Positions 3,728 through 58,286 are shown, numbered from the stretch's first letter. The stretch: 64,000 nucleotides of DNA from an uncultured Bacteriovoracaceae bacterium (GCA_938034385.1 CALHLC010000012.1:87575-151574); one strand, 5' to 3'. The notes: generated from the sequence alone by a model not told the origin. Program-made: numbers and translations.

Positions 3728-4342
3728 ATGAAGTATTTTATAATTTTAGTTTTATCATTTAGTGTTTTGGGAAATGAGTCATCATGTAGATGCTCAGATA
3801 ATCCAAAGTTAGATGAGAGTAAAATAGAGAAGTTAAAGCTTTGGATTGCACCAGGCTTTACATTAAATGCAAGTAAAGAAGGATCAATGGCAGGTATTTC
3901 TGCTATGGCCGGAGGAGCCTATTACTTTAATGGGGTTGTTGGGATTACTAGTGGTGTTTCATTCATGCAAAGAGGAGCACTTGATCAACAAAGAGAACTT
4001 AAAGCAACGTATCTTGATATTCCTTTAGGATTTACTTTTATAAATGCCGGAAGTCTTGCGACAAATAGATTTACTCTTTTTAATATTGGGGCTTTTTATT
4101 CTATTCCATTGTCTGGTTCATCAATGGGAATTCCTAATGTTCCTACTGAGTTTACTCCTGATAGTTCTTTTGGATTTTTTCTAGATGGTATTCTAAGTTT
4201 CCCTATTCCAGGAGATATAACTTATGGACTTTATAGCTCTGTAAAGTTTAGCTTTAGCGATATGTTAAGTGTTGCAGATAATACTATTTTAAGAGCAAAT
4301 AATGCTACAAATTATAGTTTTGGGTTAGCAATAGTTTTTTAA
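3728..4342 (+). CDS. outer-membrane beta-barrel (porin-family) protein
   Basis: Signal peptide, alternating beta-strand pattern and a C-terminal aromatic residue (..GLAIVF). Confidence 0.5.
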   Translation: MKYFIILVLSFSVLGNESSCRCSDNPKLDESKIEKLKLWIAPGFTLNASKEGSMAGISAMAGGAYYFNGVVGITSGVSFMQRGALDQQRELKATYLDIPLGFTFINAGSLATNRFTLFNIGAFYSIPLSGSSMGIPNVPTEFTPDSSFGFFLDGILSFPIPGDITYGLYSSVKFSFSDMLSVADNTILRANNATNYSFGLAIVF

Positions 4343-43983: not shown

Positions 43984-45087
43984 CTAAGCAGCGTCTTTTA
44001 AAGTTAACCTCCTTTTGGCTATTTCAAAATAATCTTCTCTTTTTTCTATTCCAATAAATCGTCGATCATTAAATAAACTTGCAAGTCCTGTGGTTCCTGA
44101 ACCCATAAATGGATCAAGAACGATTCCTCCTTTAGGAGTGAAAAGCTTAATTAAATGCTCAAAGAGCTTTATTGGTTTTACAGTTGGATGAGTGTTAAAC
44201 TCATCTTTTTTTGCTTTCTTGCAGTAAATAACTTGAGAGTTGTCCATTGAAGTTCGACTAAGTGATTCAAAGTATTCTCCACCTGATCTTAAGCATCTTT
44301 TTACAGTTTCACTGCCATCTGTGATGAAGTTTGCAGGATACCCTTTTTTCTTCACATCATTAATATTATAAGCACCAAGCTTATATTTAAGCATGTTGTG
44401 AATATAAGACTTTTCACAAGGTTTTTGACCAATGAAGATTGGCTCAATGGCCGGTTTTAATGTTTGAAGTCCGTAGTAGAAACTTTCAAATTTCTCTGTA
44501 GCAATGTCCTCATTGAACTTAACACTTTCGCCCATCTTCTCTATAACTTCAGAGTGACTGAGTTTTAAGTCAAGAATAAATTGAAGTCTTTTCCAAACTT
44601 TCTCACTTGGAAATTGTGGTTGAGATTTTCCAAGATAATGAGAAAACATTCCCTTGATTTCAAGCATCCGCTCAACTCTTGAAGCAGAAAGGTTCTTTCT
44701 ATCAAGTGCAGTTCTTAAATACTTTCTAAATTTATCAGTCGGAACACTTCTTGATTCATGCTTTTTTATTGCTGCTCCAAGGTTCATTCCTTTAGGCATT
44801 CCACTAGCGTAGGCCCAAACCATCATTTGATGGCTGATAAAACCAGATTTCTCAATCTGTGTGGCCATACGGTGATAAAGTCTTGAGCCACTTGTTGCTA
44901 CGATAAATCCTCCAGGTTTTAAGACTCGAAAGCATTGGCTCCAAATTTGATTTGAAGGAAGTGCCTTATCCCATTCTTCTCCATTTATTCCTATCCCGTA
45001 GGGTGGATCACAGATGATCGCATCAATAGATCTTTCTTTTAATTTTCTTAACTCAAAAACTGAGTTTCCGTTAATTAGACTAAGCAT
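43984..45087 (-). CDS. beta-class N6-adenine/N4-cytosine DNA methyltransferase (orphan)
   Basis: DPPY motif (ICDPPYGIG) near the N-terminus and an AdoMet motif LDPFMGSGTTGLAS near the C-terminus. No adjacent restriction endonuclease. Confidence 0.85.
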   Translation of the reverse strand: MLSLINGNSVFELRKLKERSIDAIICDPPYGIGINGEEWDKALPSNQIWSQCFRVLKPGGFIVATSGSRLYHRMATQIEKSGFISHQMMVWAYASGMPKGMNLGAAIKKHESRSVPTDKFRKYLRTALDRKNLSASRVERMLEIKGMFSHYLGKSQPQFPSEKVWKRLQFILDLKLSHSEVIEKMGESVKFNEDIATEKFESFYYGLQTLKPAIEPIFIGQKPCEKSYIHNMLKYKLGAYNINDVKKKGYPANFITDGSETVKRCLRSGGEYFESLSRTSMDNSQVIYCKKAKKDEFNTHPTVKPIKLFEHLIKLFTPKGGIVLDPFMGSGTTGLASLFNDRRFIGIEKREDYFEIAKRRLTLKDAA

Positions 45088-45090
45088 TAT

Positions 45091-47469: not shown

Positions 47470-47764
47470 AAAAGCTACTCCTTATTGTTACTTTCTCAGC
47501 AGCACTGTAATGTCCTGGAGTCAGGTAGAATCTAAAAAGATCAAAAAGGTACCCTTTAGGCTTTCCTTTCTTTCCAAAATAGAGTCCCATCGACAAAATT
47601 CCAGGAATTCCAAAAACAATGAACTCAGTAAAAGGGAGTCCACTGAATAAGAAATTTAAAACCATGCTGACTAAGAGGATAAAGAGAAGATCTTGGGCAT
47701 CAAGCCCAAAGATCTTCACGTCAGTATCCAAGTTTTTGTGTACGGTTGATGTTTCTAAACTCAT
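47447..47764 (-). CDS. VirB3/TrbD-like protein
   Basis: Small two-TM protein. The ATG at 47764 overlaps the upstream stop (ATGA), and its stop overlaps the VirB4 start. Confidence 0.5.
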   Translation of the reverse strand: MSLETSTVHKNLDTDVKIFGLDAQDLLFILLVSMVLNFLFSGLPFTEFIVFGIPGILSMGLYFGKKGKPKGYLFDLFRFYLTPGHYSAAEKVTIRSSFYAKRSSK

Positions 47765-48066
47765 GCTGCAAACGACTTTAGCCAGTTGATAATGTAGGGA
47801 GCGAGAAATCCAACCACTGAACAAGCAATGATCGTTGTGATTTTTCCCTTGGCCTCTGGTGATCCATTCATCGCGAGAGCTGAAGCGTAGAAAAGACCAA
47901 TAATTGAAAGAAGTGGAAGAATTTGAGTGATCAAGGCATTTGATAATCCTGAGACCTTGGATTCAAAACTTCCCCCGACATATTGAGCACTTGCTTCAGG
48001 GATAGTGAAAATACACAAAACGATAATTGTAATACTTACGATTGAAATTAATTTATTTATTTTCAT
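47761..48066 (-). CDS. VirB2/TrbC-like pilin
   Basis: 101 aa with a long signal peptide ending ..EASA followed by two hydrophobic helices. Confidence 0.55.
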   Translation of the reverse strand: MKINKLISIVSITIIVLCIFTIPEASAQYVGGSFESKVSGLSNALITQILPLLSIIGLFYASALAMNGSPEAKGKITTIIACSVVGFLAPYIINWLKSFAA

Positions 48067-48391
48067 TGAAAAACCTCATTGTTAGTTTGTATCCAGAAAA
48101 CGGAGGGATAGTTATTTCCACAAACTTTGATCCCACACATTCACTGACTTTAAATTTTTTAACGACTCCACCATTTGAGTTGGTGATGACTTTTTCTAAC
48201 TCAAAATAGGTTTGGCTATTTTGAGCTGCTTTGGGGGTTAAGTAATAAATCTCTTTACTTGAAAAGGTACTGACCTTCAGGCGGTAAGTTCCTTTTTCTG
48301 GGTTAAAGAAAGCGACACCTGCGAAGGTATGCTCTTTAGTTTTTAAGCATTTCCAAAAAACTGGGATTGCATCTGGTTTGTATTCATTCAT
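48053..48391 (-). CDS. hypothetical protein
   Basis: 112-aa ORF in the operon with no motif. Confidence 0.3.
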   Translation of the reverse strand: MNEYKPDAIPVFWKCLKTKEHTFAGVAFFNPEKGTYRLKVSTFSSKEIYYLTPKAAQNSQTYFELEKVITNSNGGVVKKFKVSECVGSKFVEITIPPFSGYKLTMRFFNENK

Positions 48392-48403
48392 AATCTTTCT
48401 CCT

Positions 48404-48799
48404 TTAAAGTTGAAGCATTCTTGCTTTTAAGTTTTCTTTCCACTTAGAAAAACTGCTTGAGTACATTTTTTGAAGATTCGTCATCCCATCTTCTAGGTAC
48501 TCTTTAATTTTTTGTTCATTTAGATTTAAGAGTTTTGCAATGTCTTGAGTGTTAAAGTCTCTCCAGTATCTTAGATATAAGACGAGAAATTCTTCTTGGT
48601 TAAGATCGAACATCATCTCTTGGATGAACTCCCTTTGCTCCAAGCTGAAATTTGCGATGGATTGAGCTTCAGGTGCACTTTGTTTTTTTGCGATTTCTCT
48701 TTCTTTTCTCTGCTTAAGCTTTTTGGCTTCAATTAGGTCAATAGTGTAATTTAATGCACTTGCCATAATTAACCTCAAAGCCCTTTTTGGTTTAAACAT
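48404..48799 (-). CDS. small sigma-70 region-4-like HTH protein
   Basis: LVLYLRYWRDFNTQDIAKLLNLNEQKIKEYLEDGMTNL resembles a sigma70 r4 HTH. At 131 aa it is too short for a full sigma factor. Confidence 0.4.
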   Translation of the reverse strand: MFKPKRALRLIMASALNYTIDLIEAKKLKQRKEREIAKKQSAPEAQSIANFSLEQREFIQEMMFDLNQEEFLVLYLRYWRDFNTQDIAKLLNLNEQKIKEYLEDGMTNLQKMYSSSFSKWKENLKARMLQL

Positions 48800-48978
48800 T
48801 CAATCGCGAGGGACAGATGTTTCTCATAATCGGTGATAAGCTTCTGTACTTGCCGATCTCCTGCTAAAACACTAACTGGAAGGTGAGCACACCAAGTTCT
48901 GAAGCGATCCCTTAAGGTCGTAAGGTTCTCGGCCGTCATTTCCAATTTTTTAGTTAGCTGTTGGTTGTTTAGATTCAA
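48775..48978 (-). CDS. hypothetical 67-aa protein, first gene of transfer operon
   Basis: TTG start preceded by an AAGGAGG SD. Confidence 0.35.
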   Translation of the reverse strand: MNLNNQQLTKKLEMTAENLTTLRDRFRTWCAHLPVSVLAGDRQVQKLITDYEKHLSLAIECLNQKGL

Positions 48979-48997
48979 AATTCCTCCTTATGATTAT

Positions 48998-49018
48998 GGA
49001 ATTAAAAAATTTAATTCC
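48998..49018. promoter_or_regulatory. operator-like palindrome GGAATTAAA-N3-TTTAATTCC
   Basis: Perfect 9-bp inverted arms, 20 nt upstream of the TTG start at 48978. Confidence 0.4.
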
Positions 49019-49035
49019 TTCATAAAGTGTATTTT

Positions 49036-49075
49036 TGGAAACCTTGGTGGAAACGGTTTACACTGGTTTCCACTC
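49036..49075. repeat. GGAAAC/GTTTCC four-half-site dyad, copy A
   Basis: TGGAAACCTTGGTGGAAACGGTTTACACTGGTTTCCACTC. A second copy is at 54432-54470. Confidence 0.7.
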
Positions 49076-49174
49076 TAGGGAGCGCCAGAAATAAAAAAGA
49101 ACAGAGCTAAGATTAATTTCGAGGAAATACTGATATTTTTAGACCTATTAAAATGACAGGGGAATTTTGGACAC

Positions 49175-49199
49175 AAAAAAGCCCGAAATTTTTTCGGGC
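49175..49199 (-). terminator. rho-independent terminator of 49244..49588 gene
   Basis: Stem GCCCGAAA/TTTCGGGC followed on the minus strand by TTTTTT. Confidence 0.65.
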
Positions 49200-49243
49200 G
49201 ATCATGTTAAATTAATTTGAACGAGATATTAGTGATTTGTGAA

Positions 49244-49588
49244 TTAAACTTCGTCTTTTATAAGGCTAAAGTCATTAACTTCAGTCAATGTACAATCGCT
49301 TTCGACTGTAAAAGTAAATACATGAGTTATAATTGCTCCACTATCTGCAACAGAGTCAACAGATGTTGCAGCACTTTTAAAGTTTCCGTTAGTGATATTA
49401 GTTGAAACACGTGGGTTATATACTTGGGTAGTAGGGACTCCCATCCCATTCTTAATATAATCAGCTGTTACTTGCTCAAGTTGATTGTAGACTTTTTTAG
49501 TATTAGTGCTATTAGGTTTGCAGGCTGAAAAGCCTGAAAGACTTTTTAAAATTAAAGAAATAATAAATAAATTTCTCGCAATTCTCAT
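49244..49588 (-). CDS. hypothetical lipoprotein
   Basis: The ATG at 49588 has a GGGAGGAA SD. Lipobox LSGFSAC. Confidence 0.45.
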   Translation of the reverse strand: MRIARNLFIISLILKSLSGFSACKPNSTNTKKVYNQLEQVTADYIKNGMGVPTTQVYNPRVSTNITNGNFKSAATSVDSVADSGAIITHVFTFTVESDCTLTEVNDFSLIKDEV

Positions 49589-49919
49589 GATTTTCCTCCC
49601 TCGTTGATTACCACGAGGTATTAATAGCACAAGATAAAGCGTAATTCACGAGAAAATGAAAAAAGCTTTCTGTATAGCGTAGTTTTTATACTAATATATC
49701 GCTGGGGCCTTTTGCCCTAAAACTGCTTAAATTTGATGGATTTACGAAATTTCAACCACTTGTGCGATCGCTCGGACTTTCTGTACATCCAAGTGCCCTA
49801 GAAAAATTTGATTAAATGCCATTCCCCAGCTTGGGTTTCTTAACGCAACCTTAACTTGAAGAAGACTATTGATATGCTAAAAAACTTTTAAGAATTTTTG
49901 TTTTATATAAAGGGGCAAC

Positions 49920-50237
49920 ATGAAAAAAATCATTATTTTAATTCTACTTACTAGTTCAATTTCATTATTAGCAAATGCTATAAAAATCACTAAAAAAGCA
50001 ACTAGTGTTCAAGTAATTGAAGTCGAGACAAAGACAACTTGCAAGGAAATAGATACCTTCATTGATGATATTGATTTTGACTGCAATATAGCACAACTTA
50101 AAAAAAGTATTTCTACAAAAATTGGAAATATTATCAAAATTGAAGGAATGGATAAGAATTCTAATTATGTTTTAAGTAATAGTGTTGATGATGTGGGTAC
50201 TTATAATATTAAGGTTAGGATTTTATACTATAAATAA
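49920..50237 (+). CDS. small secreted protein
   Basis: Signal peptide MKKIIILILLTSSISLLANA. Confidence 0.4.
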   Translation: MKKIIILILLTSSISLLANAIKITKKATSVQVIEVETKTTCKEIDTFIDDIDFDCNIAQLKKSISTKIGNIIKIEGMDKNSNYVLSNSVDDVGTYNIKVRILYYK

Positions 50238-50280
50238 TAACTGAACGATAATCACTCGATTTCTGAATAATTAAATATTT

Positions 50281-50313
50281 CAAGAACCACTGACTAAATA
50301 GCAGTGGTTCTTG
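50281..50313. terminator. hairpin between convergent genes
   Basis: Perfect 12-bp stem CAAGAACCACTG/CAGTGGTTCTTG with a 9-nt loop. The T tract is weak. Confidence 0.5.
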
Positions 50314-50359: not shown

Positions 50360-51165
50360 TTAAGTGATTATTTCAATCATGCGATTTTCTTGACCATTAT
50401 CTCCGGAATATTCAACAACTTTAGCTTGATTTGTTTGTGGGATAGGTGGTGGCTCAATTTTAAGTGATTTTTCTTGTTCTTTCTTTTCTCTTGAGATTTT
50501 TTTCTGAATTTTAAAAGGGTCATCAAGAAAATATTCTCTTACAGTATCAATTTTTATACTGTTTGCTTTCGTCATCGGAATTCCTTCTGCTTTTGCCATC
50601 TCTTTTTTCATTTCCAAAATTTCTTTTGAGATACTTCCAGTAGAAGTATTGGCAATCCTTGCACTTTCCCGGGAACTAATTCCTTTTATAAAAAGTTGCC
50701 TTATGAGTGTACTTGGACGAGTCTTTTTCCTTCCTAAAACACGACCTTCAGCTTTTACTCTTGCAAGGCCGGCAATTACTCGCTCTCTTATTAAATCGCG
50801 TTCTAACTGCGATAAAGCCCCAACTACAGCAACAAGAGCTTGCCCGATTGCTGTGTTTGTATCAATCTGCTCAGATAAGCTAACAAGAGAGCACTTATTT
50901 GACCTCATTGTTTCAAGGCATCTGAGGAGATGGGAACAAGATCTTGAAATTCTAGAAAAAGAGAATGTGGTTACTTGAATTATTCTCCCGTTCCTTATTT
51001 CGTCCATCATTTGATCTAGTGCTGGCCTCGAATCTTTTGCTCCGGATATTGCTGTATCTTTGAAAACTTTGTAGTTACTAATTTCGTTGTCACGATAATA
51101 TTTTTCAATAGACCTAATCTGACTTTCCATACCCCCTTGCTGAAAATTAGTACTCACTCTTACGT
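50360..51165 (-). pseudogene. resolvase/invertase-type serine recombinase, 5' end severed by RIT insertion
   Basis: The body has resolvase blocks (..SGAKDSRPALDQMM.., SRISRS, ALSQLERDLIRERV) and a C-terminal HTH. The frame reads stop-AQHNVRVSTNFQQ, so the first beta-strand and the start codon are missing here. They are found at 54343-54364. Confidence 0.8.
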
Positions 51166-51183
51166 TATGTTGAGCTCAACATA

Positions 51184-51215
51184 ACGTCAGTTATGTGAAG
51201 TCGTTGGATATGTTG
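51184..51215. repeat. RIT left terminal inverted repeat
   Basis: acgtcaGTTATGTGAAGTCGttggatatgttg matches the reverse complement of 54311-54342 at 29 of 32 positions. Confidence 0.8.
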
Positions 51216-51307
51216 TCAATATGTAAATAATGGACGAATTTTTTGCTGGCTCTCCATTTTAACTAAAAATCGCTCTACATATCATTTACTTAAGAAAGGA
51301 GTAAGTG

Positions 51308-52291
51308 ATGATAAGAGAGGTTGTTACAGATCAGGAAAGGGAGTTTTTCTATGCTAGAAAAAAGCTCCCAAAGCTTTACACTGATTATTTAGATTATTGC
51401 AGGAAAATAAAAAACCTAGCAATAGGTACTATCCAAAATAGAAAGAGACATGTTCTTTCATTTATTTTAGAACACCCAAATAAAGCTTCAGCTTCTAAGG
51501 TTAATAAAATAACACAAGAAGAAATCCAAGAGTATGTCGTAAAAGCGGCGACAAATCTCTCAAGAGAAATGAAAAGAAGTCTTGTCGTTTCCCTTAGAGA
51601 TTTTTTTAGGTTTCTTCACTTAAAAGAGTACACTGAGCTTGATTTGTCTCATTCAGTACCTACGATTACAACTTATAGAATGTCTCGAATCCCACGAACA
51701 ATGCCCTGGGAAACGGTTGAGTTAATTTTAAAAACCATTAATAAAAAAACGTTATCTGGAAAAAGAGATTACGCTATCATTCTTGTATTTGCTCGATACG
51801 GTATAAGAGCATGCCAACTTAGAGAGCTTCGATTGAAAGATATTGATTGGGATAAAAAAACAATAAGATTTTTAGCAATCAAAGGTGGAAATGAAATTAC
51901 TTCACCTCTATTTGATGATGTTGCAAAAGCAATTCTTGCTTATTTTAAAGCTGGGAGAATGAAAGCTTCTGATAAATATGATCATGTGTTTTTAACTTCA
52001 GGGGAATGGGGAAGCAAAGTTATGGGGCAAGTGCCCTTAAGAGAGTCAACCTGGAATATTGTGAGCAGGGCCCTGAAAAAAGCGAAACAACAAGGCTTAA
52101 TTAATCATGCTCAGGGACCTCATGCGATTAGACATGCTTTTGCAACAAAGCTTCTGGATAAAGATACTCCTCTCAAAAATATCTCAGATATGCTTGGCCA
52201 TCGATCTTTAGAGACAACTTTTATTTATACAAAGACCAGCTTAAAGCAAATGAGAAAGTTAACACTAAGATGGCCAGGAAGTTCTCTATGA
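51308..52291 (+). CDS. tyrosine recombinase, RIT subunit A
   Basis: AIRHAFATKLL (HxxR) and GHRSLETTFIYT (Y). An SD precedes the ATG at 51308. Confidence 0.85.
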   Translation: MIREVVTDQEREFFYARKKLPKLYTDYLDYCRKIKNLAIGTIQNRKRHVLSFILEHPNKASASKVNKITQEEIQEYVVKAATNLSREMKRSLVVSLRDFFRFLHLKEYTELDLSHSVPTITTYRMSRIPRTMPWETVELILKTINKKTLSGKRDYAIILVFARYGIRACQLRELRLKDIDWDKKTIRFLAIKGGNEITSPLFDDVAKAILAYFKAGRMKASDKYDHVFLTSGEWGSKVMGQVPLRESTWNIVSRALKKAKQQGLINHAQGPHAIRHAFATKLLDKDTPLKNISDMLGHRSLETTFIYTKTSLKQMRKLTLRWPGSSL

Positions 52292-53262
52292 AAAAGATAG
52301 ATCAAAAGTGGCCTGGGCACCTCGGTGAGCTTATGAAAAAGCATATGGATATGAGAAGAGCTATTGGAAGGGTTGGAACAGCTGATGCTTATACTCTTTA
52401 TAACTTTAATAATTTTTTAATCGAAAATTATCCAAAAATTAAAGTTCCAAATAGAATGGCTATTCTTCACTACATGAAAACTTACTCACACTTAAGTGTT
52501 GGAGGACGTAGAAATAAACTCATTTATATTCGCCAGTTTTGTTTATTCTTAAACCAGCGAGGGATAGAGTGTTATGTTCCTGATAAAACTTTAATTCCAA
52601 AGTATACTTATGAACCTCGATATTATCCTCTTAATGAAAAACAAATCATTCAAATAATGAATCTCATTGAAAATTATAAGAATCACCATAACAAAAAATA
52701 TACAGGGAGAATGTACTCAACCTTTATTGGACTTCTCTGGGCCACGGGACTACGCTCAGGTGAAGCATGCAGGCTAAAGCATGAAGACATTGACCTTGAA
52801 GAAGGATTGATCTTAGTTAAGCAAACCAAGTTCTTTAAAGACAGAATTATTCCAATTTCTAAGACATCAATAGAGGCACTAAAGGATCATTTATCCCTAA
52901 AAGAATCTTTAGGTTTGAATACATCTTCAGATTCATCTTTTTTTCTAAACTCTCAAGGAAGACCACTTTCCGCTCATACTGTTGGCTCAATGTTTGGAAG
53001 GTTTGTGAGAAGAATGAAGATAAAAAAGATCAATGGAAGATATCCTGTTTTACATGACTTGAGACATAACTTTGCAACTCAGTGGATTCATCGTTTTTAC
53101 AAAGATACTGCCAAATATCCTCCCCAATCTTATGTCCCAAAGTTATCGACATATTTAGGTCATACAACGTTATTTTCTAGCCAGTATTATATTCATCCAG
53201 ATTTTGACCTTCTTCAAAGTGCATCTAAAAATTTTAACTTAGAGGATTTATATGAAAAATAA
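52270..53262 (+). CDS. tyrosine recombinase, RIT subunit B
   Basis: GLRSGEACRL (R), LHDLRHNFATQ and GHTTLFSSQYYIH. Overlaps the previous gene by 22 nt. Confidence 0.85.
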   Translation: MARKFSMKKIDQKWPGHLGELMKKHMDMRRAIGRVGTADAYTLYNFNNFLIENYPKIKVPNRMAILHYMKTYSHLSVGGRRNKLIYIRQFCLFLNQRGIECYVPDKTLIPKYTYEPRYYPLNEKQIIQIMNLIENYKNHHNKKYTGRMYSTFIGLLWATGLRSGEACRLKHEDIDLEEGLILVKQTKFFKDRIIPISKTSIEALKDHLSLKESLGLNTSSDSSFFLNSQGRPLSAHTVGSMFGRFVRRMKIKKINGRYPVLHDLRHNFATQWIHRFYKDTAKYPPQSYVPKLSTYLGHTTLFSSQYYIHPDFDLLQSASKNFNLEDLYEK

Positions 53263-54232
53263 TTTAATGCTTCTAACTCAAAACTTTTTCCAAAAATACT
53301 TACCAAACGAAAGAGGCTTTAGTCAGCATACTGTTTACTCTTATCGAGATACACTTAAGGTTTATTTTAGTTTTTTATCTCAAAAAAACAAAAAGCCTAA
53401 GCTTGACGATATGACGGCCCAAAATGTTATCAATTTTTTAGATTTTTTAAAAAGCACTAGAAATAACTCAGTTAAGACACAAAACCAAAGACTGGCTGTT
53501 CTAAAATGCTTCTATGAGTATTTACGTGCTCACGACCCGATAAGATCTAATCAATATAGTCGAATTGAACATATAAAAATGAAGAGAGCTCCTAGAAGGC
53601 CGATTGAGTACTTTGACAAAGAAGAGGTTAAAGCAATATTAGATTCAGTCGATCGAGGTAGTCGCAATGGTGATAGAGACTATGCTTTGTTAAAGCTTCT
53701 TTATAATAGTGGTGCTCGTGTTCAAGAGCTTTGTGACTTACGAGTTAGAGATATCAGAGCATATCCACCTTACCTTGTTGAGCTAACAGGAAAAGGAAGG
53801 AAAACGAGAAAGGTCCCATTATGGAAAGATACTGTTCTTTCGCTCGAGTCACTAATAAAGGGGCGAGATAGTTTAGCCCCTGTTTTTTGTTATCAGGAAA
53901 AGCCACTTGGCAGGTTTGGAGTTCGATACATCGTCAAAAAGCATTGCAAGAAAGCATCACAACAACAGATCAGTTTGCAAGGCAAGAAGATTGGTCCTCA
54001 TACTTTTAGGCATACAACGGCAATGCACCTTCTTCAAAGCGGAACAGACATCAGTGTTATAAAAACTTGGTTAGGGCATGTCGATCTTAATACGACTCAT
54101 GGATACATTGAAATTGACCTTGAGATGAAAAGAAAGGCAATGAATAAGATAAGTAAAGTTGCTTCTAAAAACACAGAAAATCTTTTAAAGAAAAATAAAG
54201 ATATTGTCAGTTGGTTATCTAATTTTAAATAA
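53252..54232 (+). CDS. tyrosine recombinase, RIT subunit C
   Basis: GARVQELCDL (R), PHTFRHTTAMHLL and GHVDLNTTHGYIE. Overlaps the previous gene by 11 nt. Confidence 0.85.
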   Translation: MKNNLMLLTQNFFQKYLPNERGFSQHTVYSYRDTLKVYFSFLSQKNKKPKLDDMTAQNVINFLDFLKSTRNNSVKTQNQRLAVLKCFYEYLRAHDPIRSNQYSRIEHIKMKRAPRRPIEYFDKEEVKAILDSVDRGSRNGDRDYALLKLLYNSGARVQELCDLRVRDIRAYPPYLVELTGKGRKTRKVPLWKDTVLSLESLIKGRDSLAPVFCYQEKPLGRFGVRYIVKKHCKKASQQQISLQGKKIGPHTFRHTTAMHLLQSGTDISVIKTWLGHVDLNTTHGYIEIDLEMKRKAMNKISKVASKNTENLLKKNKDIVSWLSNFK

Positions 54233-54310
54233 AAAACAAAAAGATATGTGAAGTAATTTTCTGTGTTAAGAGTTTTTTTACGCTGACTGGTTGTATTTAT
54301 TAAAAGTTTG

Positions 54311-54342
54311 CAACATATCAAGCGACTTCACATAACTTACGT
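54311..54342. repeat. RIT right terminal inverted repeat
   Basis: caacatatcaagCGACTTCACATAACttacgt, the partner of 51184-51215. Confidence 0.8.
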
Positions 54343-54364
54343 AGCTTGCATGATATCTGTTCAT
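54343..54364 (-). pseudogene. orphaned 5' fragment (MNRYHAS..) of the serine recombinase gene
   Basis: The ATG at 54364 overlaps the stop of the upstream HTH gene (TAATG). Joining it across the 7-bp repeat gives MNRYHASYVRVSTNFQQ in frame. Confidence 0.75.
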
Positions 54365-54912
54365 TAATCCTCCGTTTTTGTGGGATTAAGTTTTGTTATT
54401 AGTTTTATAATCCCTTCATAGAGTGGTGAAATGGAAACCTGAGTGGAAACCGTTTCCACTTGGTTTCCATTTTTACACTTATTAGAGAGGTAGTTTTTTT
54501 CAATGAAAAATTTTAAATTTTCTATCGCTCTGTTTCTTATCTTGGAGACAGCTGTGTGTGAAATTTTTAATTCCTTAGCAAGCTGTCTCATTGAAAGATT
54601 CCCGAAGTATAAACCGGTAATAACAGTTTTTTGCTTAGGACAAAGACTTTGAATACTTTTATCTAAAATTTCTTTGAAGTGAATATACTCTTTGTCTGTT
54701 TCGATATTTTGAAATAGAGTTGAAATTTGTATCTTCTCAGCTCTATCATCGAAGTATTCTTCATTATGAATTTGTCGCTCTTTTTGGTTGATCTCAATAG
54801 TTTTTAAATACCGTTCCCAAGTTTCTGGGTTCCAAGTTTTTACGGCTTCTTTTAGATCTGTATCTGAAAGTGCTTGCCCTTTTTCATCTAACCACGGAAA
54901 TTCTTTGTTCAT
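54364..54912 (-). CDS. sigma-70 region-4-like HTH protein
   Basis: The ATG at 54912 has an AAGGAG SD. QKTVITGLYFGNLSMRQLAKELKISHTAVSKIRNRAIENL is an r4-type HTH. Confidence 0.5.
   Translation of the reverse strand: MNKEFPWLDEKGQALSDTDLKEAVKTWNPETWERYLKTIEINQKERQIHNEEYFDDRAEKIQISTLFQNIETDKEYIHFKEILDKSIQSLCPKQKTVITGLYFGNLSMRQLAKELKISHTAVSKIRNRAIENLKFFIEKNYLSNKCKNGNQVETVSTQVSISPLYEGIIKLITKLNPTKTED
54432..54470. repeat. GGAAAC/GTTTCC four-half-site dyad, copy B
   Basis: TGGAAACCTGAGTGGAAACCGTTTCCACTTGGTTTCCAT, a near-perfect palindrome inside the 3' end of the HTH gene and about 70 bp upstream of the recombinase ATG. Confidence 0.7.
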
Positions 54913-55048
54913 TGCATTGCTCCTTATGTTGCGCCGAGTAATTCGACTGTTGTTAAGTGCAAACACTAAGTACAAATCTGGCACCAAGAATTTTTAAAAC
55001 CCGGCCTTTTAAAAACAGTTAGTTAGAAGTTTGAAGAAAAATATCCAT

Positions 55049-55113: not shown

Positions 55114-56475
55114 ATGTCGTTAGACGTTTTGTTAATTGAAGACAATCCTCATACTGCTCTTAATTTTCAAGAGATGTTTGAGGATGAGGACTATGGACAC
55201 AGAGTTTCAGTGGCAAAATCCACGACAGTGGCAAAGTCACTTATTCAAAAAAGAAACTTTGATATTGCTTTTGTTGATCTTGATCTCGAAAAGAAAAGAG
55301 CAGGCTTTGATGTTGTACCACTTTTAAAAGATAAAAAAGTTTATACAGTTATCCTTTCTGGTCATGATGAAGATGAGTATGTTGAAAAAGGCTATGGACT
55401 CAATTGTAACGCTTATTTAACTAAACCTTATGATTTAGAGCAAATCGAAAATATTTTCACGACTCTGGATCGCCATAATGAATTTATTCTTTCTTACAGA
55501 GAGTTATTGAAGACAGATTATTTAACTCGAAATGAATTTACTCTCAAAGAGCTGAAGAAAGCAGAAAACTATTTATTAAGAGATGATATTAAGTTGTTTA
55601 TCTCAGGTGAAACGGGTGTCGGAAAAACGGCATTATCGAAAGTTCTTCACTTGGCTCAGTTCAAAAACTTTAATAACTATGTTCATGTAAACTGTGCCCA
55701 AATAGAAAGTACTCTTCTCAAGTCTGAATTATTTGGAGCTAAAAAAGGATCACACTCTGAGGCAAAAACTGATAAAGCAGGGCTGATTGTTGGAGCTAAT
55801 GGAGGAACTCTTCATTTGGATGAAATCGCCTGTTTAGACCTTGAAGCTCAGGCAATGCTTCTAACTTTTCTCGATACAGGAATCGTTCAACCCCTTGGTG
55901 GTGAAAAGAAAGATGAAGTAAAGATCAAGACTAAGATTATTTGTTCGACGAACGAAAGCTTAGAAAAAATGATTCAAGAGAAGAAGTTTAGAGAAGATCT
56001 TTATCATCGAATTATGGGAAAAGTGCTAGAAGTACCATCTTTAAAAGAAAGACCTGAAGATGTGAAGCTTTTTGTTGATCTTGAGATTGAAAAATTAAAT
56101 AGGAAAAAAGTATTTCGATTCAGTAAAGCTGCAAGAGAAAAACTCTATGCATATAACTGGTATGGAAACATTAGAGAGCTAAAAGAATACTTTAAAGGAA
56201 TTTCTGATGGGAAGGGATTTCTTAATGTCTCTGATTTACCTGCTTGGATTGTTAATAACTTTAATAAAAATAATATTCCAACAAGGTCTGTCCTAACTGA
56301 TGAGCAGATCGCTTATGTCCAAGATAATGGACTAAATAAATTTTTAGAAAAAATCTCATCTGAGGTGATTGAGCACTTTTATCACAAGAATGGACGCAAG
56401 TTTAATAGAACTAAGAATGAACTGGGAATAACTCAGTACAATTTAAAAAAGTATCTTGAGGGTCATTCAAAATGA
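55114..56475 (+). CDS. NtrC-family response regulator (REC + AAA+ + Fis-type HTH) with degenerate GAFTGA
   Basis: REC (FVDLDL, LTKP). Walker A GETGVGKT and Walker B GGTLHLDEI. ELFGAKKGSHSEA replaces ELFGHEKGAFTGA. C-terminal HTH NELGITQYNLKKYL. Confidence 0.8.
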   Translation: MSLDVLLIEDNPHTALNFQEMFEDEDYGHRVSVAKSTTVAKSLIQKRNFDIAFVDLDLEKKRAGFDVVPLLKDKKVYTVILSGHDEDEYVEKGYGLNCNAYLTKPYDLEQIENIFTTLDRHNEFILSYRELLKTDYLTRNEFTLKELKKAENYLLRDDIKLFISGETGVGKTALSKVLHLAQFKNFNNYVHVNCAQIESTLLKSELFGAKKGSHSEAKTDKAGLIVGANGGTLHLDEIACLDLEAQAMLLTFLDTGIVQPLGGEKKDEVKIKTKIICSTNESLEKMIQEKKFREDLYHRIMGKVLEVPSLKERPEDVKLFVDLEIEKLNRKKVFRFSKAAREKLYAYNWYGNIRELKEYFKGISDGKGFLNVSDLPAWIVNNFNKNNIPTRSVLTDEQIAYVQDNGLNKFLEKISSEVIEHFYHKNGRKFNRTKNELGITQYNLKKYLEGHSK

Positions 56476-56720
56476 GTAAAAATTTGTATGAATCACAAGA
56501 TATCAAAGAGATTAGAGAAAGTTTACATTGGCTTTCGACTAGAATTCAAGATTTGAATACAACGAACTTACTGGTTAGAAAATATTTAGGGCGTGAGGAT
56601 AAAGAAGATTTTTGTAAGAAAAGCTTGGATGCCTCTTTAGAGGCCAGAGAACGAATGACTAAAGAGTTAAAAAATATAAGATCAAAATTGAAGGTATTAA
56701 GAGAGTACAAAGATGTTTAA
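56472..56720 (+). CDS. small coiled-coil protein
   Basis: 82 aa with an ATGA overlap upstream and an 8-nt overlap downstream. Confidence 0.4.
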   Translation: MSKNLYESQDIKEIRESLHWLSTRIQDLNTTNLLVRKYLGREDKEDFCKKSLDASLEARERMTKELKNIRSKLKVLREYKDV

Positions 56721-58191
56721 GTTTTTTGTCACTCTCATGTTCACTCTTTCTTCTCTACATGTTTTTGGAAACAGCGATATTATGCTAATTCCTGTTAAAG
56801 AGATTCCTAAGAAAATCGACTCTTTTTACGGAAATGATTTAACTCTTAATAAAATTATCAATCAATTAGCAGAAGGGCTTGTTAAACTTGATGATTCGCT
56901 TTATCCAAGGCCTGCAGTAGCAAAATCTTGGAAAATTGATGAAAGAAATAAGAGTATCGAATTTAGTTTAGATACAGGCAAAAAGTTTCACGATGGTTCA
57001 ACAGTTAAAAGCATTGATGTTTTTAATGTGCTCCAACAAAGCTTGGCTAAGAAAAGTGATTTAACTAGCCAGATATCAGAATTTGAAAGCTGTAAAACAA
57101 TGAGAAAATGCGAAGGTTTTAGTGAGATTGATCAAAAAAGCTTCAAACTAAAATTAAATGATACAAACTTTATTGGTTTTTTGAGAAAGCTCTCAAATAT
57201 AGAGGGAGTCATATTCAAGAGAGATAGTTCTCGATTCATTGGAACTGGGCCTTATAAGCTAGAGAAATTAACAAAATCTCAGGTTGTCTTGAATCGAGTA
57301 AGTAAATCATATTTCAAAAAAATTATATTCAAGAAAATGAACGATAAGGATGCTCTAAAGTCTTTTTTAGCTGGGAAGGTCGATTTTATAAGTGATAGCG
57401 ATTTTAAGGTTTCAAAATCTGACTTAAACAATCCTTTAGTTAAGGAAGAAAATACGGTTCTTACTTTTGGGTTAGTCTTTAACTTAAAGAAAGGAGTTTT
57501 CAAATCGAAGCATAATAGAAAAGTGCTATCAGTGGCAATTGATAAAGAAAAACTCGTTAAGCTCTATTCTCACCCTGCGATTGTCGCTAATGGATTAATA
57601 CCAAAAGGTTTTCAAGGACATGTTCGTAATACTGAAAAGAGTAAAGGTTTTGGAAGATTAAAGCTCTATGGATCAAAGAAAGTTATCTTTGGATTAAGGC
57701 ACAAGTACAAAGGGAATAAAGCAATTACAGATTATCTCCCGAGAGTCATGAAGTCTTTGGGCTTAGATGTGAAAGTTGTCTTTGATGATTTTGGAGCAAT
57801 TTTAAAAGATTTAAAGAAGCCTAGTGGGAAGTATCATCTTACGATCAAGGGTGAGGCCCCTCGATACTTTGATTCCGCTTCTGTATTTCGTCCTTACGTT
57901 TATGGTCAATTTCCAAACGTAACTAATTATAAGAACGATGAGTTCACTAAGCTTTATTTTGATTCTGAAAGCTTGCTCGGAAAAAAGAAACTTATGGCCC
58001 TTGGTAGAATGGAAGAAATTCTTAGAGAAGAGGTTCCAGTTATCCCTCTTTTTCATCCTGTTTTTACGAAGTGGTATCAAAGTTCAATGAATATCAATAA
58101 AGATTTGAAATCCTCAATAAAGTTTTGGGATTTTCCGTTTTATTCCTACTCAAGGAATAAAATTAACACTGAAAAAGGAGGTCGACTATGA
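56713..58191 (+). CDS. family-5 (peptide/nickel) ABC substrate-binding protein, orphan
   Basis: Signal peptide and the GTGPYKLEK signature of SBP_bac_5. No ABC permease or ATPase genes are in the operon. Confidence 0.75.
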   Translation: MFKFFVTLMFTLSSLHVFGNSDIMLIPVKEIPKKIDSFYGNDLTLNKIINQLAEGLVKLDDSLYPRPAVAKSWKIDERNKSIEFSLDTGKKFHDGSTVKSIDVFNVLQQSLAKKSDLTSQISEFESCKTMRKCEGFSEIDQKSFKLKLNDTNFIGFLRKLSNIEGVIFKRDSSRFIGTGPYKLEKLTKSQVVLNRVSKSYFKKIIFKKMNDKDALKSFLAGKVDFISDSDFKVSKSDLNNPLVKEENTVLTFGLVFNLKKGVFKSKHNRKVLSVAIDKEKLVKLYSHPAIVANGLIPKGFQGHVRNTEKSKGFGRLKLYGSKKVIFGLRHKYKGNKAITDYLPRVMKSLGLDVKVVFDDFGAILKDLKKPSGKYHLTIKGEAPRYFDSASVFRPYVYGQFPNVTNYKNDEFTKLYFDSESLLGKKKLMALGRMEEILREEVPVIPLFHPVFTKWYQSSMNINKDLKSSIKFWDFPFYSYSRNKINTEKGGRL

Positions 58192-58286
58192 CTACACTTG
58201 AGCAGAATGAACAGTTGGAAGATGTGATTATTAATCTGGACATCTTCGATGATGAAATTATGTCTGAGGCTAGAGTCAGCGCATAA
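58188..58286 (+). CDS. 32-aa acidic peptide (candidate precursor/signal peptide): MTTLEQNEQLEDVIINLDIFDDEIMSEARVSA
   Basis: Below the ORF-track size cutoff. AAAGGAGG SD 6 nt upstream of the ATG. ATGA overlap with the SBP stop. Ends 8 nt before the HExxH gene. Confidence 0.55.
   Translation: MTTLEQNEQLEDVIINLDIFDDEIMSEARVSA

What the first reader, a model, noticed from the sequence alone, without database searches (positions are those of the whole stretch)
51159..54342. RIT (three tyrosine recombinases) element caught inside a serine recombinase gene; excision in silico restores the ORF exactly
Seen in sequence: three overlapping tyrosine recombinase genes are bounded by 32-bp inverted repeats (51184-51215 and 54311-54342, 29 of 32 matching). 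The heptamer CTTACGT occurs at both edges (51159-51165 and 54336-54342). On the minus strand, the gene body at 50360-51157 begins abruptly at ..RVSTNFQQ (catalytic Ser motif) with a stop 6 codons upstream. Right of the element, an ATG at 54364, coupled by TAATG to the upstream HTH gene, encodes MNRYHASYV. Deleting one heptamer copy plus the intervening 3.18 kb gives ATG AAC AGA TAT CAT GCA AGC TAC GTA AGA GTG AGT ACT. This translates as MNRYHASYVRVSTNFQQ, a canonical resolvase N-terminus, in frame. Established knowledge: RIT elements are IR-flanked trios whose mobility has rarely been observed. Tyrosine recombinases exchange strands across a 6-8 bp overlap, which fits a 7-bp shared core. Inference: this is a clean, probably recent RIT insertion that defines its target and core sequence and inactivates a competing recombinase.
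Basis: partly seen in the sequence, partly recalled or inferred. Interest (0 to 1): 0.7.

Follow-up and report, generated by a model that had tools for sequence, protein, structure and literature searches.

The report
Recombinase trio homing into resolvase genes
A small mobile element carrying three tyrosine recombinases has cut into another recombinase's gene exactly at the codons for its active site; its relatives hit the same spot in at least eleven other such genes, which gives these little-understood RIT elements a defined target and a testable mechanism.

Summary
Three overlapping tyrosine-recombinase genes (ritA-ritB-ritC, 51305-54232) with inverted-repeat ends split a serine recombinase (SR) gene. 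Deleting 3177 bp restores a 275-aa ORF. Its N-terminus, MNRYHASYVRVST, matches uninterrupted homologues at 75-83% identity.

The shared "heptamer" is a 6-bp crossover sequence (CTTACG) plus one arm base. Between it and the left repeat lies a 20-bp palindrome (P, 51165-51184), followed by a second 6-mer.

In six related elements every readable junction but one has the same plan: SR stub ending Tyr-x | 6 nt | long IR ... long IR | 6 nt | P | 6 nt | third base of the Arg codon, then Val-Ser-Thr. This covers 11 distinct SR bodies and 9 clear stubs. P always faces the RVST side, whichever way the trio points. The inner 6-mer is always the reverse complement of a Tyr-x-Arg 6-mer, so it records an earlier target.

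Best model (inferred): a circular form carries two dyad-related attachment sites around P, and 6-bp coupling sequences travel with the element.

In passing: 50 distant RITs share this architecture. Their clades target motif-coding sequences in other mobile-element genes (IstB, RadC, IS256-type, ISL3, TrwC, reverse transcriptase and others). I found none of this in the papers I could reach.

The parts
50360..51158 (-). Body of the interrupted serine recombinase gene. It runs from the third base of the Arg codon (R-V-S-T-N-F-Q-Q...) to the stop. This is the right half-site (BR) of the target.
   Evidence: Pfam Resolvase E 1.5e-32, starting at profile position 8. My own SR HMM aligns from the codon before Arg. 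100% identical to database protein P0001.
51159..51164 (.). Outer 6-mer o3 (CTTACG on +, CGTAAG in SR sense). It comprises the third base of the Tyr codon, the Val codon and the first two bases of the Arg codon. It is the crossover or coupling sequence at the P-to-target junction.
   Evidence: Read directly. The same position and the pattern [CT]NNN[CA]G hold in 11 of 11 related junctions.
51165..51184 (.). P: a perfect 20-bp palindrome, TTATGTTGAG|CTCAACATAA, made of two inverted copies of the terminal arm. It is part of the mobile unit.
   Evidence: It is the only such palindrome in the window. An element-specific P lies on the RVST side in all 11 distinct related junctions and in 50 distant RITs.
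51185..51190 (.). Inner 6-mer o2 (CGTCAG on +). On the + strand it reads as a Tyr3-Val-Arg1,2 6-mer (C GTC AG); in SR sense it is CTGACG, its reverse complement. I infer it is a record of an earlier SR target.
   Evidence: The reverse complement of o2 fits [CT]NNN[CA]G in 11 of 11 junctions. In L024/L025 and L004/L005 it equals the target 6-mer of a sister copy.
51191..51231 (+). Long left inverted repeat (IRL). It starts TTATGTGAAG and carries three TATGT repeats, at 51192, 51209 and 51220.
   Evidence: the repeat finder pair I1, 48 nt at 79% including the 6-mer region. Repeat positions.
51305..52291 (+). ritA, a tyrosine recombinase of 328 aa from GTG (327 aa as called from ATG 51308). The R, H-x-x-R-H and G-H...Y motifs are present.
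   Evidence: Pfam Phage_integrase E 9.8e-27. It best matches the first gene in 81 of 104 distant trios. Translation.
52288..53262 (+). ritB, a tyrosine recombinase of 324 aa. Its start overlaps the ritA stop as ATGA.
   Evidence: Pfam E 1.5e-24. It best matches the middle gene in 83 of 101 trios. Homologues listed.
53252..54232 (+). ritC, a tyrosine recombinase of 326 aa with an N-terminal SAM-like domain. It is the most conserved of the three across RITs.
   Evidence: Pfam Phage_integrase 4e-29 and Phage_int_SAM_1 5e-14. It best matches the third gene in 86 of 103 trios. Between-class identity is 0.40.
54242..54267 (+). Sub-terminal extra copy of the arm motif (AGATATGTGAAGT), inverted relative to IRR. 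Role unknown.
   Evidence: the repeat finder D5 and I6. Three-mismatch match.
54295..54335 (-). Long right inverted repeat (IRR), ending ...CGACTTCACATAA.
   Evidence: the repeat finder I1..
54336..54341 (.). Outer 6-mer o1 (CTTACG on +) at the junction between IRR and the SR stub. It is identical to o3, so precise excision restores the gene.
54342..54364 (-). Orphaned 5' stub of the serine recombinase gene, from ATG through the 'TA' of the Tyr codon: M-N-R-Y-H-A-S-Y(-V, whose codon lies in o1). This is the left half-site (BL) of the target.
   Evidence: Conserved in homologues P0002, P0003 and P0005 and colinear with L001.
54364..54987 (-). Upstream sigma-70 region-4 / HTH gene. Its stop overlaps the SR start codon (TAATG). 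It is context, not part of the mobile unit.
   Evidence: Pfam Sigma70_r4 2.4e-07. NCBIfam sigma70-ECF superfamily 2e-13.

Best explanation
The 3177-bp unit 51165-54341 is a recombinase-in-trio (RIT) element. It comprises the palindrome P, a 6-mer, the long IR, ritA-ritB-ritC, the second long IR and a 6-mer. It has integrated by tyrosine-recombinase site-specific recombination into the 5' end of a serine recombinase gene that lies next to type IV secretion genes.

Shown by comparison:
- The insertion point is not accidental. This RIT clade (RitB about 45% identical or more) targets the DNA that encodes the SR catalytic motif Tyr-x-Arg-Val-Ser-Thr.
- The 6-bp exchange region is always the third base of the Tyr codon, codon x and the first two bases of the Arg codon.
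- The upstream half-site (ending TA) becomes joined to a long IR. The downstream half-site (N-GT-N-W-S-N-AC) becomes joined to an arm of P.

Inferred:
- The element moves as a circle whose joint reads IRR - 6 nt - P - 6 nt - IRL.
- That joint is a large imperfect palindrome holding two equivalent attachment sites (P arm | 6 nt | long-IR arm) related by the dyad. Either site can recombine with the asymmetric target. This explains why P is always on the RVST side while the trio can face either way.
- The 6-bp overlaps need not match the target. They travel with the element as coupling sequences, as in Tn916, Tn554 and SE elements. The unused site therefore keeps the 6-mer of an earlier target.

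More speculative: the four half-sites of a synapse need three specificities, namely two element arms, the upstream target half and the downstream target half. That would explain three recombinases, with RitC on the conserved TTATG arms and RitA and RitB on the two target halves.

In the window both outer 6-mers are CTTACG, so precise excision would restore the SR gene.
For: Insertion and restoration.

RIT identity: three Phage_integrase genes with an ATGA overlap. A-B-C order orthology to about 100 distant trios. Terminal IRs.

Target specificity:
- Six other elements (RitB P0157, P0122, P0129, P0149, P0140, P0152; 46-61% identical) came from different samples.
- They give 11 distinct junctions of the form IR-6-P-6-(R)VST and 10 junctions of the form stub-6-IR. 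Nine stubs end in a hydrophobic residue, then Tyr, then x, for example MQHRIGSYV, MRHNIGLYL, MSVYKCAIYT and KQKRVACYA.
- The SR genes hit range from roughly 200-aa small SRs to large SRs of 549 and about 555 aa.
- None of 121 distant trios has an adjacent SR gene.

P belongs to the element: it is element-specific and identical at different sites. In L024 and L025 it keeps its orientation relative to the trio while changing sides.

Coupling sequences:
- The reverse complement of o2 fits [CT]NNN[CA]G in 11 of 11 cases.
- L025's o2 is the reverse complement of L024's target 6-mer, and the converse also holds. L005's o2 is the reverse complement of L004's o1.
- In L190, o1 (CGCCCG) gives the required Arg codon, whereas o3 (CGCCAG) would give Ser. 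So o3 is foreign to the target.

Generality: 50 distant RITs parse with the same 6-bp spacing. The reverse complement of o2 differs from o3 by 1.18 positions on average, against 3.86 for o2 read directly. P lies on the RitC side in 20 and on the RitA side in 30.

Division of labour: N-domain identity between target classes is 0.40 for RitC, 0.23 for RitA and 0.24 for RitB.
Against: - No circle, empty site or excision product of this very element has been observed. Mobility is inferred from comparative data alone.
- Most related contigs are short-read metagenome assemblies. They can be chimeric across a 3.2-kb repeat, so the pairing of left and right junctions is unreliable. L014/L015 show SR stubs on both sides. 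L191/L192 show P on both sides.
- Only the window, L024/L025 (long contigs) and perhaps L190 give trustworthy pairs.
- One stub-type junction (L005, ..GILYF, 6-mer TTTTGG) does not look like an SR start.
- Two further clade members had no Resolvase gene called nearby, and no DNA could be fetched for them.
- The rule that the stub side keeps the target 6-mer while the P side receives the element's 6-mer rests on a single clearly informative case (L190).
- The RitA/B/C division of labour rests on divergence rates of genes that co-evolve as a unit, so it is weak evidence.
- Site-specific inversion of the trio between the hybrid site and the intact internal site could also produce both orientations and the inverted 6-mer.
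Confidence: 0.8

Rival explanations
1. The simple model. The element is bounded by the 32-bp repeats at 51184 and 54342. It recombines through one fixed 7-bp core, CTTACGT, shared by a single attP and the target. The 18 bp between the left heptamer and the left repeat have no role.
For: In the window the two copies of the heptamer are identical, and deleting one copy restores the gene.
Against: - The intervening sequence is a perfect palindrome made of arm copies, and relatives conserve its position.
- The 6-mers differ between elements, between sites and even between the two junctions of one copy.
- The seventh base is explained by the invariant T of the TTATG arm on one side and the A of the Tyr codon on the other.
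Confidence: 0.08
2. A domesticated genetic switch. The trio is kept by the host or by the conjugative element to turn the serine recombinase gene off and on through reversible, precise excision, like the developmentally excised elements in sigK or nifD.
For: The two outer 6-mers are identical, so excision would be scarless. The SR ORF and all three rit ORFs are intact.
Against: Related elements sit in at least 11 unrelated SR genes, in both orientations, in many samples, and often in several copies per assembly. Distant clades do the same to transposase, relaxase and reverse-transcriptase genes. That is the signature of a selfish homing element rather than of one host's regulator.
Confidence: 0.06
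3. The direct repeat is a target-site duplication made by staggered cuts of a transposase-like reaction, not a recombinase overlap.
For: A 6-7 bp direct repeat flanks an element with inverted-repeat ends, which is the classical look of an insertion sequence.
Against: The element has no DDE or other transposase gene; its only genes are three tyrosine recombinases. Sister copies have outer 6-mers that differ at several positions (L024: CATCCG against TGCGCG), which a fresh duplication cannot give. The inner 6-mer memory also has no place in a duplication model.
Confidence: 0.03
4. Assembly artefact or chimera. The trio and the SR fragments were joined wrongly by the assembler.
For: Related metagenome contigs do show flank combinations that may be chimeric (L004-L013, L014, L191/L192).
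Against: In the window both flanks are halves of one gene that fit to the nucleotide. The same 12.9 kb is found in a second assembly with no mismatch. No second copy of the element's ends exists in the 64-kb window.
Confidence: 0.02

Closest known systems
RIT (recombinase in trio) elements, e.g. ritA1B1C1 and ritA2B2C2 of Cupriavidus metallidurans CH34 (Van Houdt 2009/2012; Ricker 2013)
   Same: Three adjacent, overlapping tyrosine recombinase genes in the order A-B-C, with ATGA overlaps and flanking inverted repeats. Known copies interrupt genes of other mobile elements: radC in two species, an IS66 tnpA, and a Tn6049-like transposase (PMC2864759; PMC3414803). The distant loci I parsed include the radC-targeting type (L028, L030).
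   Different: - The window's clade has a short RitA (328 aa, against a median of about 420 for stop-to-stop ORFs in distant trios).
- It lives in AT-rich, apparently Bdellovibrionota/Oligoflexia-like genomes.
- It has a target, the serine recombinase catalytic-site codons, that I did not find described.
- The 2023 summary table lists RIT target specificity, empty-site formation and mode of movement as "not tested" (PMC10214605).
- The IR-6-P-6 architecture and the 6-mer memory are not in any paper I could read. Ricker 2013 could not be read.
Tn554 family (TnpA, TnpB, TnpC; Staphylococcus)
   Same: It uses several tyrosine recombinases, inserts site-specifically (att554 in radC) without making a target duplication, and carries 6 bp from the previous flank into the new site (as summarised in PMC10214605).
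   Different: Tn554 has no terminal inverted repeats and no palindrome. Its third protein, TnpC, is not a recombinase. It inserts in one orientation, and its recombinases belong to other subgroups (PMC8138268).
SE (strand-biased circularizing integrative elements) and GInts
   Same: They are multi-recombinase integrative elements with a circular intermediate that contains 6 bp of the left flank and leaves a 6-bp footprint at the new site (PMC10214605).
   Different: They have four conserved genes, including Tfp/GinC and Srap/GinD, carry large cargo and are restricted to Gamma- and Betaproteobacteria. The window's proteins do not match the gamma-mobile-trio model: NCBIfam GmtY scores 23.9 bits against a cut-off of 340.
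Tn916 / CTnDOT-type conjugative transposons (coupling sequences)
   Same: Their tyrosine recombinase makes staggered cuts 6-7 bp apart. The flanking 'coupling sequences' need not be homologous and travel in the circle joint to the next site (my own knowledge).
   Different: They have one integrase plus Xis, weak target specificity and no double attachment site.
'res hunters' (Tn5053/Tn402 family) and homing elements (group I/II introns, inteins)
   Same: The strategy is the same: insert into sequences that belong to other mobile elements, or that selection on a protein active site keeps constant. Targets are therefore always available and tend to sit on transferable DNA (my own knowledge).
   Different: The enzymes are different: a DDE transposase with TniQ, or homing endonucleases and reverse transcriptases. 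res hunters target the resolvase's DNA site, not the resolvase gene.

Membership tests
RIT (recombinase in trio) element | Three adjacent tyrosine recombinase genes on one strand with short overlaps | tested here: met
   ORFs at 51305-52291, 52288-53262 and 53252-54232, each with Pfam Phage_integrase. The ritA/ritB overlap is ATGA, as reported for known RITs.
RIT (recombinase in trio) element | The three proteins belong to three distinct subfamilies in the fixed order RitA-RitB-RitC | tested here: met
   By BLAST against about 100 distant trios, the window's first, second and third proteins best match the first, second and third gene in 81/104, 83/101 and 86/103 trios. The exceptions look like one-gene shifts in my automatic trio calling.
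RIT (recombinase in trio) element | Catalytic Arg, His-x-x-Arg-His and Tyr present in all three proteins | tested here: met
   Read from the translations. RitA: YGIRAC, HAIRHAF, LGH...FIY. RitB: TGLRSGE, HDLRHNF, LGH...QYY. RitC: SGARVQE, HTFRHTT, LGH...HGY. The RitB residues are invariant in the 42-sequence alignment.
RIT (recombinase in trio) element | Flanking imperfect inverted repeats | tested here: met
   48 nt at 79% complementarity. The arm consensus TTATG is shared with 50 distant RITs.
RIT (recombinase in trio) element | RitA with two core-binding domains and RitC with an extra C-terminal helix (Smyshlyaev 2021, PMC8138268) | tested here: inconclusive
   In the window's RitA only about 135 residues precede the catalytic domain, and the protein is shorter than in most trios. 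No structure was predicted.
RIT (recombinase in trio) element | Moves as a unit | not testable with these tools
   Only comparative evidence is available: the same element at different sites and an uninterrupted homologous target.
Tn554 family | TnpA and TnpB recombinases plus the non-recombinase TnpC; no terminal inverted repeats | tested here: not met
   The element has three recombinases, no TnpC-like ORF and clear IRs. It resembles Tn554 only in behaviour (6-bp carry-over).
SE / GInt (gamma-mobile-trio) elements | Four conserved genes (IntA/GinA, Tfp/GinC, IntB/GinB, Srap/GinD) | tested here: not met
   There is no fourth gene. The NCBIfam GmtY match is 23.9 bits against a cut-off of 340.
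Serine recombinase (the interrupted target gene) | Full Resolvase catalytic domain with the Y-x-R-V-S-T nucleophile motif at the N-terminus | tested here: met
   After in-silico excision, Pfam Resolvase covers profile positions 2-144 of 145 at E 2.7e-36. The N-terminus is conserved in homologues.

The most novel reading that the evidence does not exclude
RIT elements as a whole are site-specific hyperparasites of other mobile elements. Each clade homes to a short DNA sequence that encodes a conserved active-site motif. The targets seen here are:
- serine recombinase Y-x-R-V-S
- IstB Walker B
- RadC H-N-H-P-S-G
- IS256-type and ISL3 transposases
- the G-K-x-E-R region of rve-type transposases
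- IstA D-N
- TrwC relaxase S-A-P-K-S
- reverse transcriptase Y-A-D-D
- tyrosine recombinase L-R-H

They do this with a dyad-symmetric double attachment site and 6-bp coupling sequences. The three recombinases divide the labour: RitC binds the universal TTATG arms, while RitA and RitB each read one half of the target. On this reading target choice is modular and evolvable, and the old puzzle of why there are three recombinases is solved.
Probability: 0.3. Interest if true: 0.9.

Novelty: new variant of a known kind. Interest (0 to 1): 0.78.

Why it matters
RIT elements have been known since 2009 and occur in many phyla. Yet a 2023 review table still lists their target specificity, empty-site formation and mode of movement as untested, and nobody has reproduced their transposition (PMC10214605). 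Van Houdt et al. wrote that it is hard to see why three recombinases would be needed to cut four strands (PMC3414803).

This window gives a clean, fully intact example with an unambiguous target, and its relatives define several things:

- **Exchange region.** It is defined to the nucleotide.
- **Composition of the mobile unit.** It includes a palindrome that had not been taken into account.
- **Predicted circle joint.** It can be amplified with outward-facing primers.
- **A rule for the 6-bp sequences.** They travel with the element.
- **A hypothesis for the three proteins.** It can be tested by DNA-binding assays.

If the wider pattern holds, RITs are a general class of elements that disable and ride on other mobile elements by homing to their active-site codons. 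That bears on conflicts between mobile elements, on genome annotation (split transposase and recombinase "pseudogenes") and possibly on recombinase engineering.

Tried and rejected
- **NCBIfam** has no RIT-specific model. All three proteins fall well below the Xer and integron cut-offs.
- **Ricker et al. 2013 (Plasmid)**, the main descriptive paper, is not held. I cannot exclude that the palindrome or some targets are described there. Seven literature searches found no paper describing an SR target, motif homing or the IR-6-P-6 plan. One apparent hit used RIT for Rho-independent terminators.
- **Closest uninterrupted homologue P0002** (80% identity): its contig could not be fetched.
- **Two further clade members** (P0169, P0155) returned gene lists without DNA and without a called Resolvase neighbour. 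These are uninformative.
- **Scan of viral contigs** found nothing.
- **Organism names** were not available from the cluster look-up.
- **Promoter and terminator scan** of the element gave no more matches than shuffles did, so I make no claim about expression.
- **A one-mismatch match to the IR core at 11929** lies inside a 718-aa ORF with no other element features, so I treat it as chance. Matches with up to three mismatches number 7, against 3.8 expected.
- **My first automatic palindrome scan** flagged nothing because the IR alignments had absorbed the 6-mers. A slower version timed out. The rewritten parser worked but also produces false parses in GC-rich loci and mis-parsed L004-L013, which I read with a family-specific script instead.
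- **Picking the longest junction-spanning ORF** often chose the wrong frame in GC-rich loci. I then selected frames by motif and confirmed them with Pfam.

Full report
**1. The observation**

- CTTACGT occurs at 51159-51165 and 54336-54342, with one further copy in the 64-kb window.
- The repeats 51184-51215 and 54311-54342 match at 29 of 32 positions and extend to 48 nt at 79%.
- Three overlapping plus-strand ORFs (51305-52291, 52270/52288-53262, 53252-54232) each carry a Pfam Phage_integrase domain.
- On the minus strand, ORF 50360-51157 matches Pfam Resolvase only from profile position 8 and begins at ..RVSTNFQQ, with a stop six codons upstream.
- To the right of the element, an ATG at 54364 overlaps the stop of a sigma-70-region-4 gene (TAATG) and encodes MNRYHASYV.
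- Removing 3177 nt gives an in-frame 275-aa ORF. Its Resolvase match now covers profile positions 2-144 of 145.

**2. The restoration is real**

A search with the restored protein found uninterrupted homologues with the same N-terminus:

| Protein | Identity | N-terminus |
|---|---|---|
| P0003 | 75% | MKKQKYHASYVRVSTHMQQGGMESQ |
| P0002 | 80% | ..KKRYHASYLRVSTNMQ |
| P0005 | 83% | ..KKFHASYLRVST |

The DNA of the P0003 locus (L001) aligns with the restored window sequence without a gap across the junction, with ACGTTAG in place of ACGTAAG. A second assembly of the locus is identical over 12.9 kb.

**3. Finer anatomy**

Between the left "heptamer" and the left repeat lies a perfect 20-bp palindrome, TTATGTTGAG|CTCAACATAA (51165-51184). 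I call it P. Each half is a copy of the terminal arm of the long repeats (TTATGTGAAG). P is followed by a 6-mer, CGTCAG (51185-51190), before the long repeat starts at 51191.

In the sense of the serine recombinase (SR) gene the locus reads:

stub ...AGCTA | CGTAAG | long IR ... trio (antisense) ... long IR | CTGACG | P | CGTAAG | AGTGAGTACT...

These resemble each other because the + strand 6-mers CGTCAG (51185-51190) and CTTACG (54336-54341, reverse complement CGTAAG) are both versions of "third base of Tyr, Val codon, first two bases of Arg".

**4. It is a RIT**

- The window's three proteins best match the first, second and third gene in 81/104, 83/101 and 86/103 distant trios.
- ritA and ritB overlap by ATGA, as reported for known RITs.
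- All three proteins keep the catalytic Arg, His-x-x-Arg-His and Tyr.
- NCBIfam has no specific model. The gamma-mobile-trio (SE/GInt) model is not matched.

**5. Relatives do the same thing**

RitB homologues at 42-61% identity are numerous. Many sit on stand-alone contigs of about 3.1-4.3 kb, as expected for a repeated element. I fetched contigs for six of them and read every junction with an SR profile built. Each is one of two types.

- **P-side.** Long-IR end ...ACATAA, 6 nt (o2), an element-specific 20-bp P (TTATGT...ACATAA), 6 nt (o3), then the third base of an Arg codon followed by V-S-T of an SR body. There are 11 distinct SR bodies, the window included: RVSTNFQQ, RVSTEEQAQI, RVSTEEQAQV, RVSTEEQAAN, RVSTANQ, RTSTLMQ, (S)VSTQDQ, RVSTALQ, RVSTLEQ, RVSTGNQ and RVSTLDQ.
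- **Stub-side.** A short SR N-terminus ending hydrophobic-Tyr-x, then 6 nt (o1) and the long IR. Examples are MNRYHASYV, MQHRIGSYV, MRHNIGLYL, MSVYKCAIYT, MEKAVALYL, ..KIGFYI, ..VTGLYA, ..KYVALYC and ..KQKRVACYA. A tenth, ..GILYF, is doubtful.

The exchange region is at the same nucleotide in all of them. The upstream flank ends in TA in 10 of 10, with G at -8 in 9 of 10. The downstream flank reads N-G-T-N-W-S-N-A-C.

The SR genes hit range from small resolvase/invertase-like proteins to large serine recombinases. The restored L004 protein is 549 aa with Resolvase, Recombinase and Zn_ribbon domains; the L024 ORF is about 555 aa. None of 121 complete trios from distant RitB relatives (25-35% identity) has an SR gene next to it. 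SR targeting is therefore a property of this clade.

**6. P, orientation and the 6-mers**

P is always on the RVST side. The trio, however, is antisense to the SR gene with P next to ritA in the window, L024, L190 and L192, and sense with P next to ritC in L004-L013, L025, L186/188 and L193. Within one genome assembled into long contigs (L024 and L025), P has the same orientation relative to the trio but lies on opposite sides of it.

P is identical at different sites of one element and differs between elements, so it travels with the element.

All 11 inner 6-mers are reverse complements of the pattern [CT]NNN[CA]G, the Tyr3-x-Arg1,2 pattern. In three cases the inner 6-mer equals the reverse complement of a sister copy's target 6-mer:

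| Copy | Inner 6-mer (o2) | Sister copy's target 6-mer (o1) |
|---|---|---|
| L025 | CGGATG | L024: CATCCG |
| L024 | CGCGCA | L025: TGCGCG |
| L005 | CTTACG | L004: CGTAAG |

The two outer 6-mers can differ. In L190 the stub-side 6-mer CGCCCG completes the required Arg codon, while the P-side 6-mer CGCCAG would encode Ser. The P-side 6-mer there must be foreign.

**7. Model**

These facts fit a circular intermediate whose joint is IRR-6-P-6-IRL. That joint is an imperfect palindrome containing two equivalent sites, each "P arm | 6 nt | long-IR arm", related by the dyad.

The asymmetric target (stub half | 6 nt | RVST half) recombines with either site. This always joins the stub to a long IR and the RVST half to a P arm. 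The choice of site decides which way the trio faces and on which side of it P ends up. The site not used keeps its 6-mer, which comes from an earlier target and is read in the opposite direction.

The overlaps do not have to be identical to the target and are carried along. This behaviour is known for Tn916 coupling sequences (my own knowledge) and for Tn554 and SE elements (PMC10214605).

This part is inference. No circle has been seen, and site-specific inversion between the hybrid site and the intact internal site could give some of the same patterns.

**8. A possible reason for three recombinases**

A synapse would contain two TTATG arms plus two unlike target halves, which makes three specificities for four half-sites. 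Across 27 trios assigned to target classes, RitC is the most conserved between classes: N-terminal domain identity is 0.40, against 0.23 for RitA and 0.24 for RitB. RitC also has the highest BLAST scores to distant trios. This fits RitC binding the near-universal arms (consensus TTATG(C/T)(C/G)GAG) and RitA and RitB reading the target. The three genes co-evolve as a unit, so the evidence is weak.

**9. Seen in passing: the plan is general**

An automatic parser found the full structure, with 6-bp spacers, in 50 loci. The structure is flank - 6 - long IR ... long IR - 6 - P - 6 - flank.

- The outer 6-mers are identical in 28 of the 50.
- The reverse complement of the inner 6-mer differs from the outer one by 1.18 positions on average, against 3.86 when read directly.
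- P is on the ritC side in 20 loci and on the ritA side in 30.

In-silico excision restores ORFs whose junction falls in conserved motifs. Pfam gives single uninterrupted domain matches across the junction:

| Target family (Pfam) | Junction motif |
|---|---|
| RadC | AAAIILM\|HNHPTGDPTPS |
| IstB_IS21 | DLLILD\|DFGL, LLLVD\|EVGYLPF, LVILD\|ELGYLPF and others |
| Transposase_mut | QRCWV\|HKTANVL |
| DUF3489 | ATNWQP\|HTVRG |
| Phage_integrase | TPHSLR\|HTAAMALL |
| IstA (rve) | GGVPAMV\|VSDNLK |
| TrwC | DLTFSAPK\|SVS |
| DDE_Tnp_ISL3 | SNGPTE\|AINGVIE |
| rve | GR\|GKIERFF |
| RVT_1 | LIRY\|ADDFVVL |
| DUF72 (apparently not a mobile-element gene) | YAYANNH\|YAGHGPA |

The radC case matches what is published for CH34 and Bordetella petrii. 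Insertions in an IS66 tnpA and a Tn6049-like transposase are also published.

**10. Novelty**

RITs are a known kind of element. Within the papers I could search and read, their target specificity, empty-site formation and movement are listed as untested, and transposition has not been reproduced. I found no description of an SR target, of the IR-6-P-6 structure, of the 6-mer memory or of clade-wise motif homing. I therefore rate the finding as a new variant of a known kind. It is of high interest because it turns the open question of how RITs move into concrete experiments.

**11. Limits**

- Most related contigs are short-read metagenome assemblies, in which left and right flanks of a 3.2-kb repeat can be mis-paired.
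- Configurations with stubs on both sides (L014/L015) or P on both sides (L191/L192) may be chimeras, products of homologous recombination between inverted copies, or real secondary reactions.
- One stub-type junction (L005) is not clearly an SR start.
- Two clade members could not be examined.
Homologues are annotated from Bdellovibrio, Bdellovibrionales and Oligoflexia.
- The SR gene lies next to type IV secretion genes (TraC/VirB4) and a DNA methyltransferase gene, which suggests a conjugative element.

Noticed in passing
L028-L185 (distant RitB loci from genome and metagenome scans): The one-sided 20-bp palindrome with 6-bp spacers is general for RITs (50 full parses). Different clades interrupt different conserved motif-coding sequences: RadC HNHPSG, IstB Walker B, IS256-type and ISL3 transposases, IstA, rve, TrwC relaxase, reverse transcriptase YADD, a tyrosine recombinase LRH box, DUF3489 and DUF72. 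Pfam gives uninterrupted domain matches after in-silico excision.
   Followed up: partly
L014, L015 (P0152 element); L191, L192 (P0140 element): These are non-canonical configurations. The P0152 element has SR N-terminal stubs on both sides and no P, seen in two assemblies from different samples. The P0140 element shows four distinct P-side junctions and no stub side. They could be assembly chimeras, RecA-mediated inversions between inverted copies, or secondary site-specific reactions such as integration into a solo P.
   Followed up: partly
L014-L019 (about 414 bp after ritC); P0169 contig: Two clade members carry one extra small gene (137 and 142 aa, no Pfam hit) between ritC and the right inverted repeat. 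These RITs can therefore carry cargo.
   Followed up: no
L168, L033, L150: In three IstB-targeting RITs the best matches to RitA and RitB fall in one long ORF (about 780-800 codons). This suggests a RitA-RitB fusion protein, or a missed stop codon.
   Followed up: no
L025 (contig_3 of ERZ21862375), 4015-4999 and 7062-7217: The second copy in this genome is decaying. ritA is split into ORFs of 261 and 62 aa, and the SR body next to P is only about 50 codons long.
   Followed up: no
window 44360-50300 and 55114-58200: To the left of the interrupted SR gene lie type IV secretion genes (a 792-aa TraC/VirB4-like ATPase), an N6/N4 DNA methyltransferase and small sigma-70-region-4 proteins. To the right lie a sigma-54 response regulator and an SBP_bac_5 gene. 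The SR is probably the recombinase of a conjugative element at or near its border.
   Followed up: no
window 54242-54267: An extra inward copy of the arm motif (AGATATGTGAAGT) lies about 70 bp inside the right end, inverted relative to IRR. No counterpart exists at the left end, and its role is unknown.
   Followed up: no
window 54426-54476: A near-perfect 25-nt inverted repeat (GTGAAATGGAAACCTGAGTGGAAAC / GTTTCCACTTGGTTTCCATTTTTAC) lies inside the 3' part of the sigma-70-region-4 gene, just upstream of the SR start. The terminator scan also reports it. It could be a binding site or an attenuator for the SR operon.
   Followed up: no
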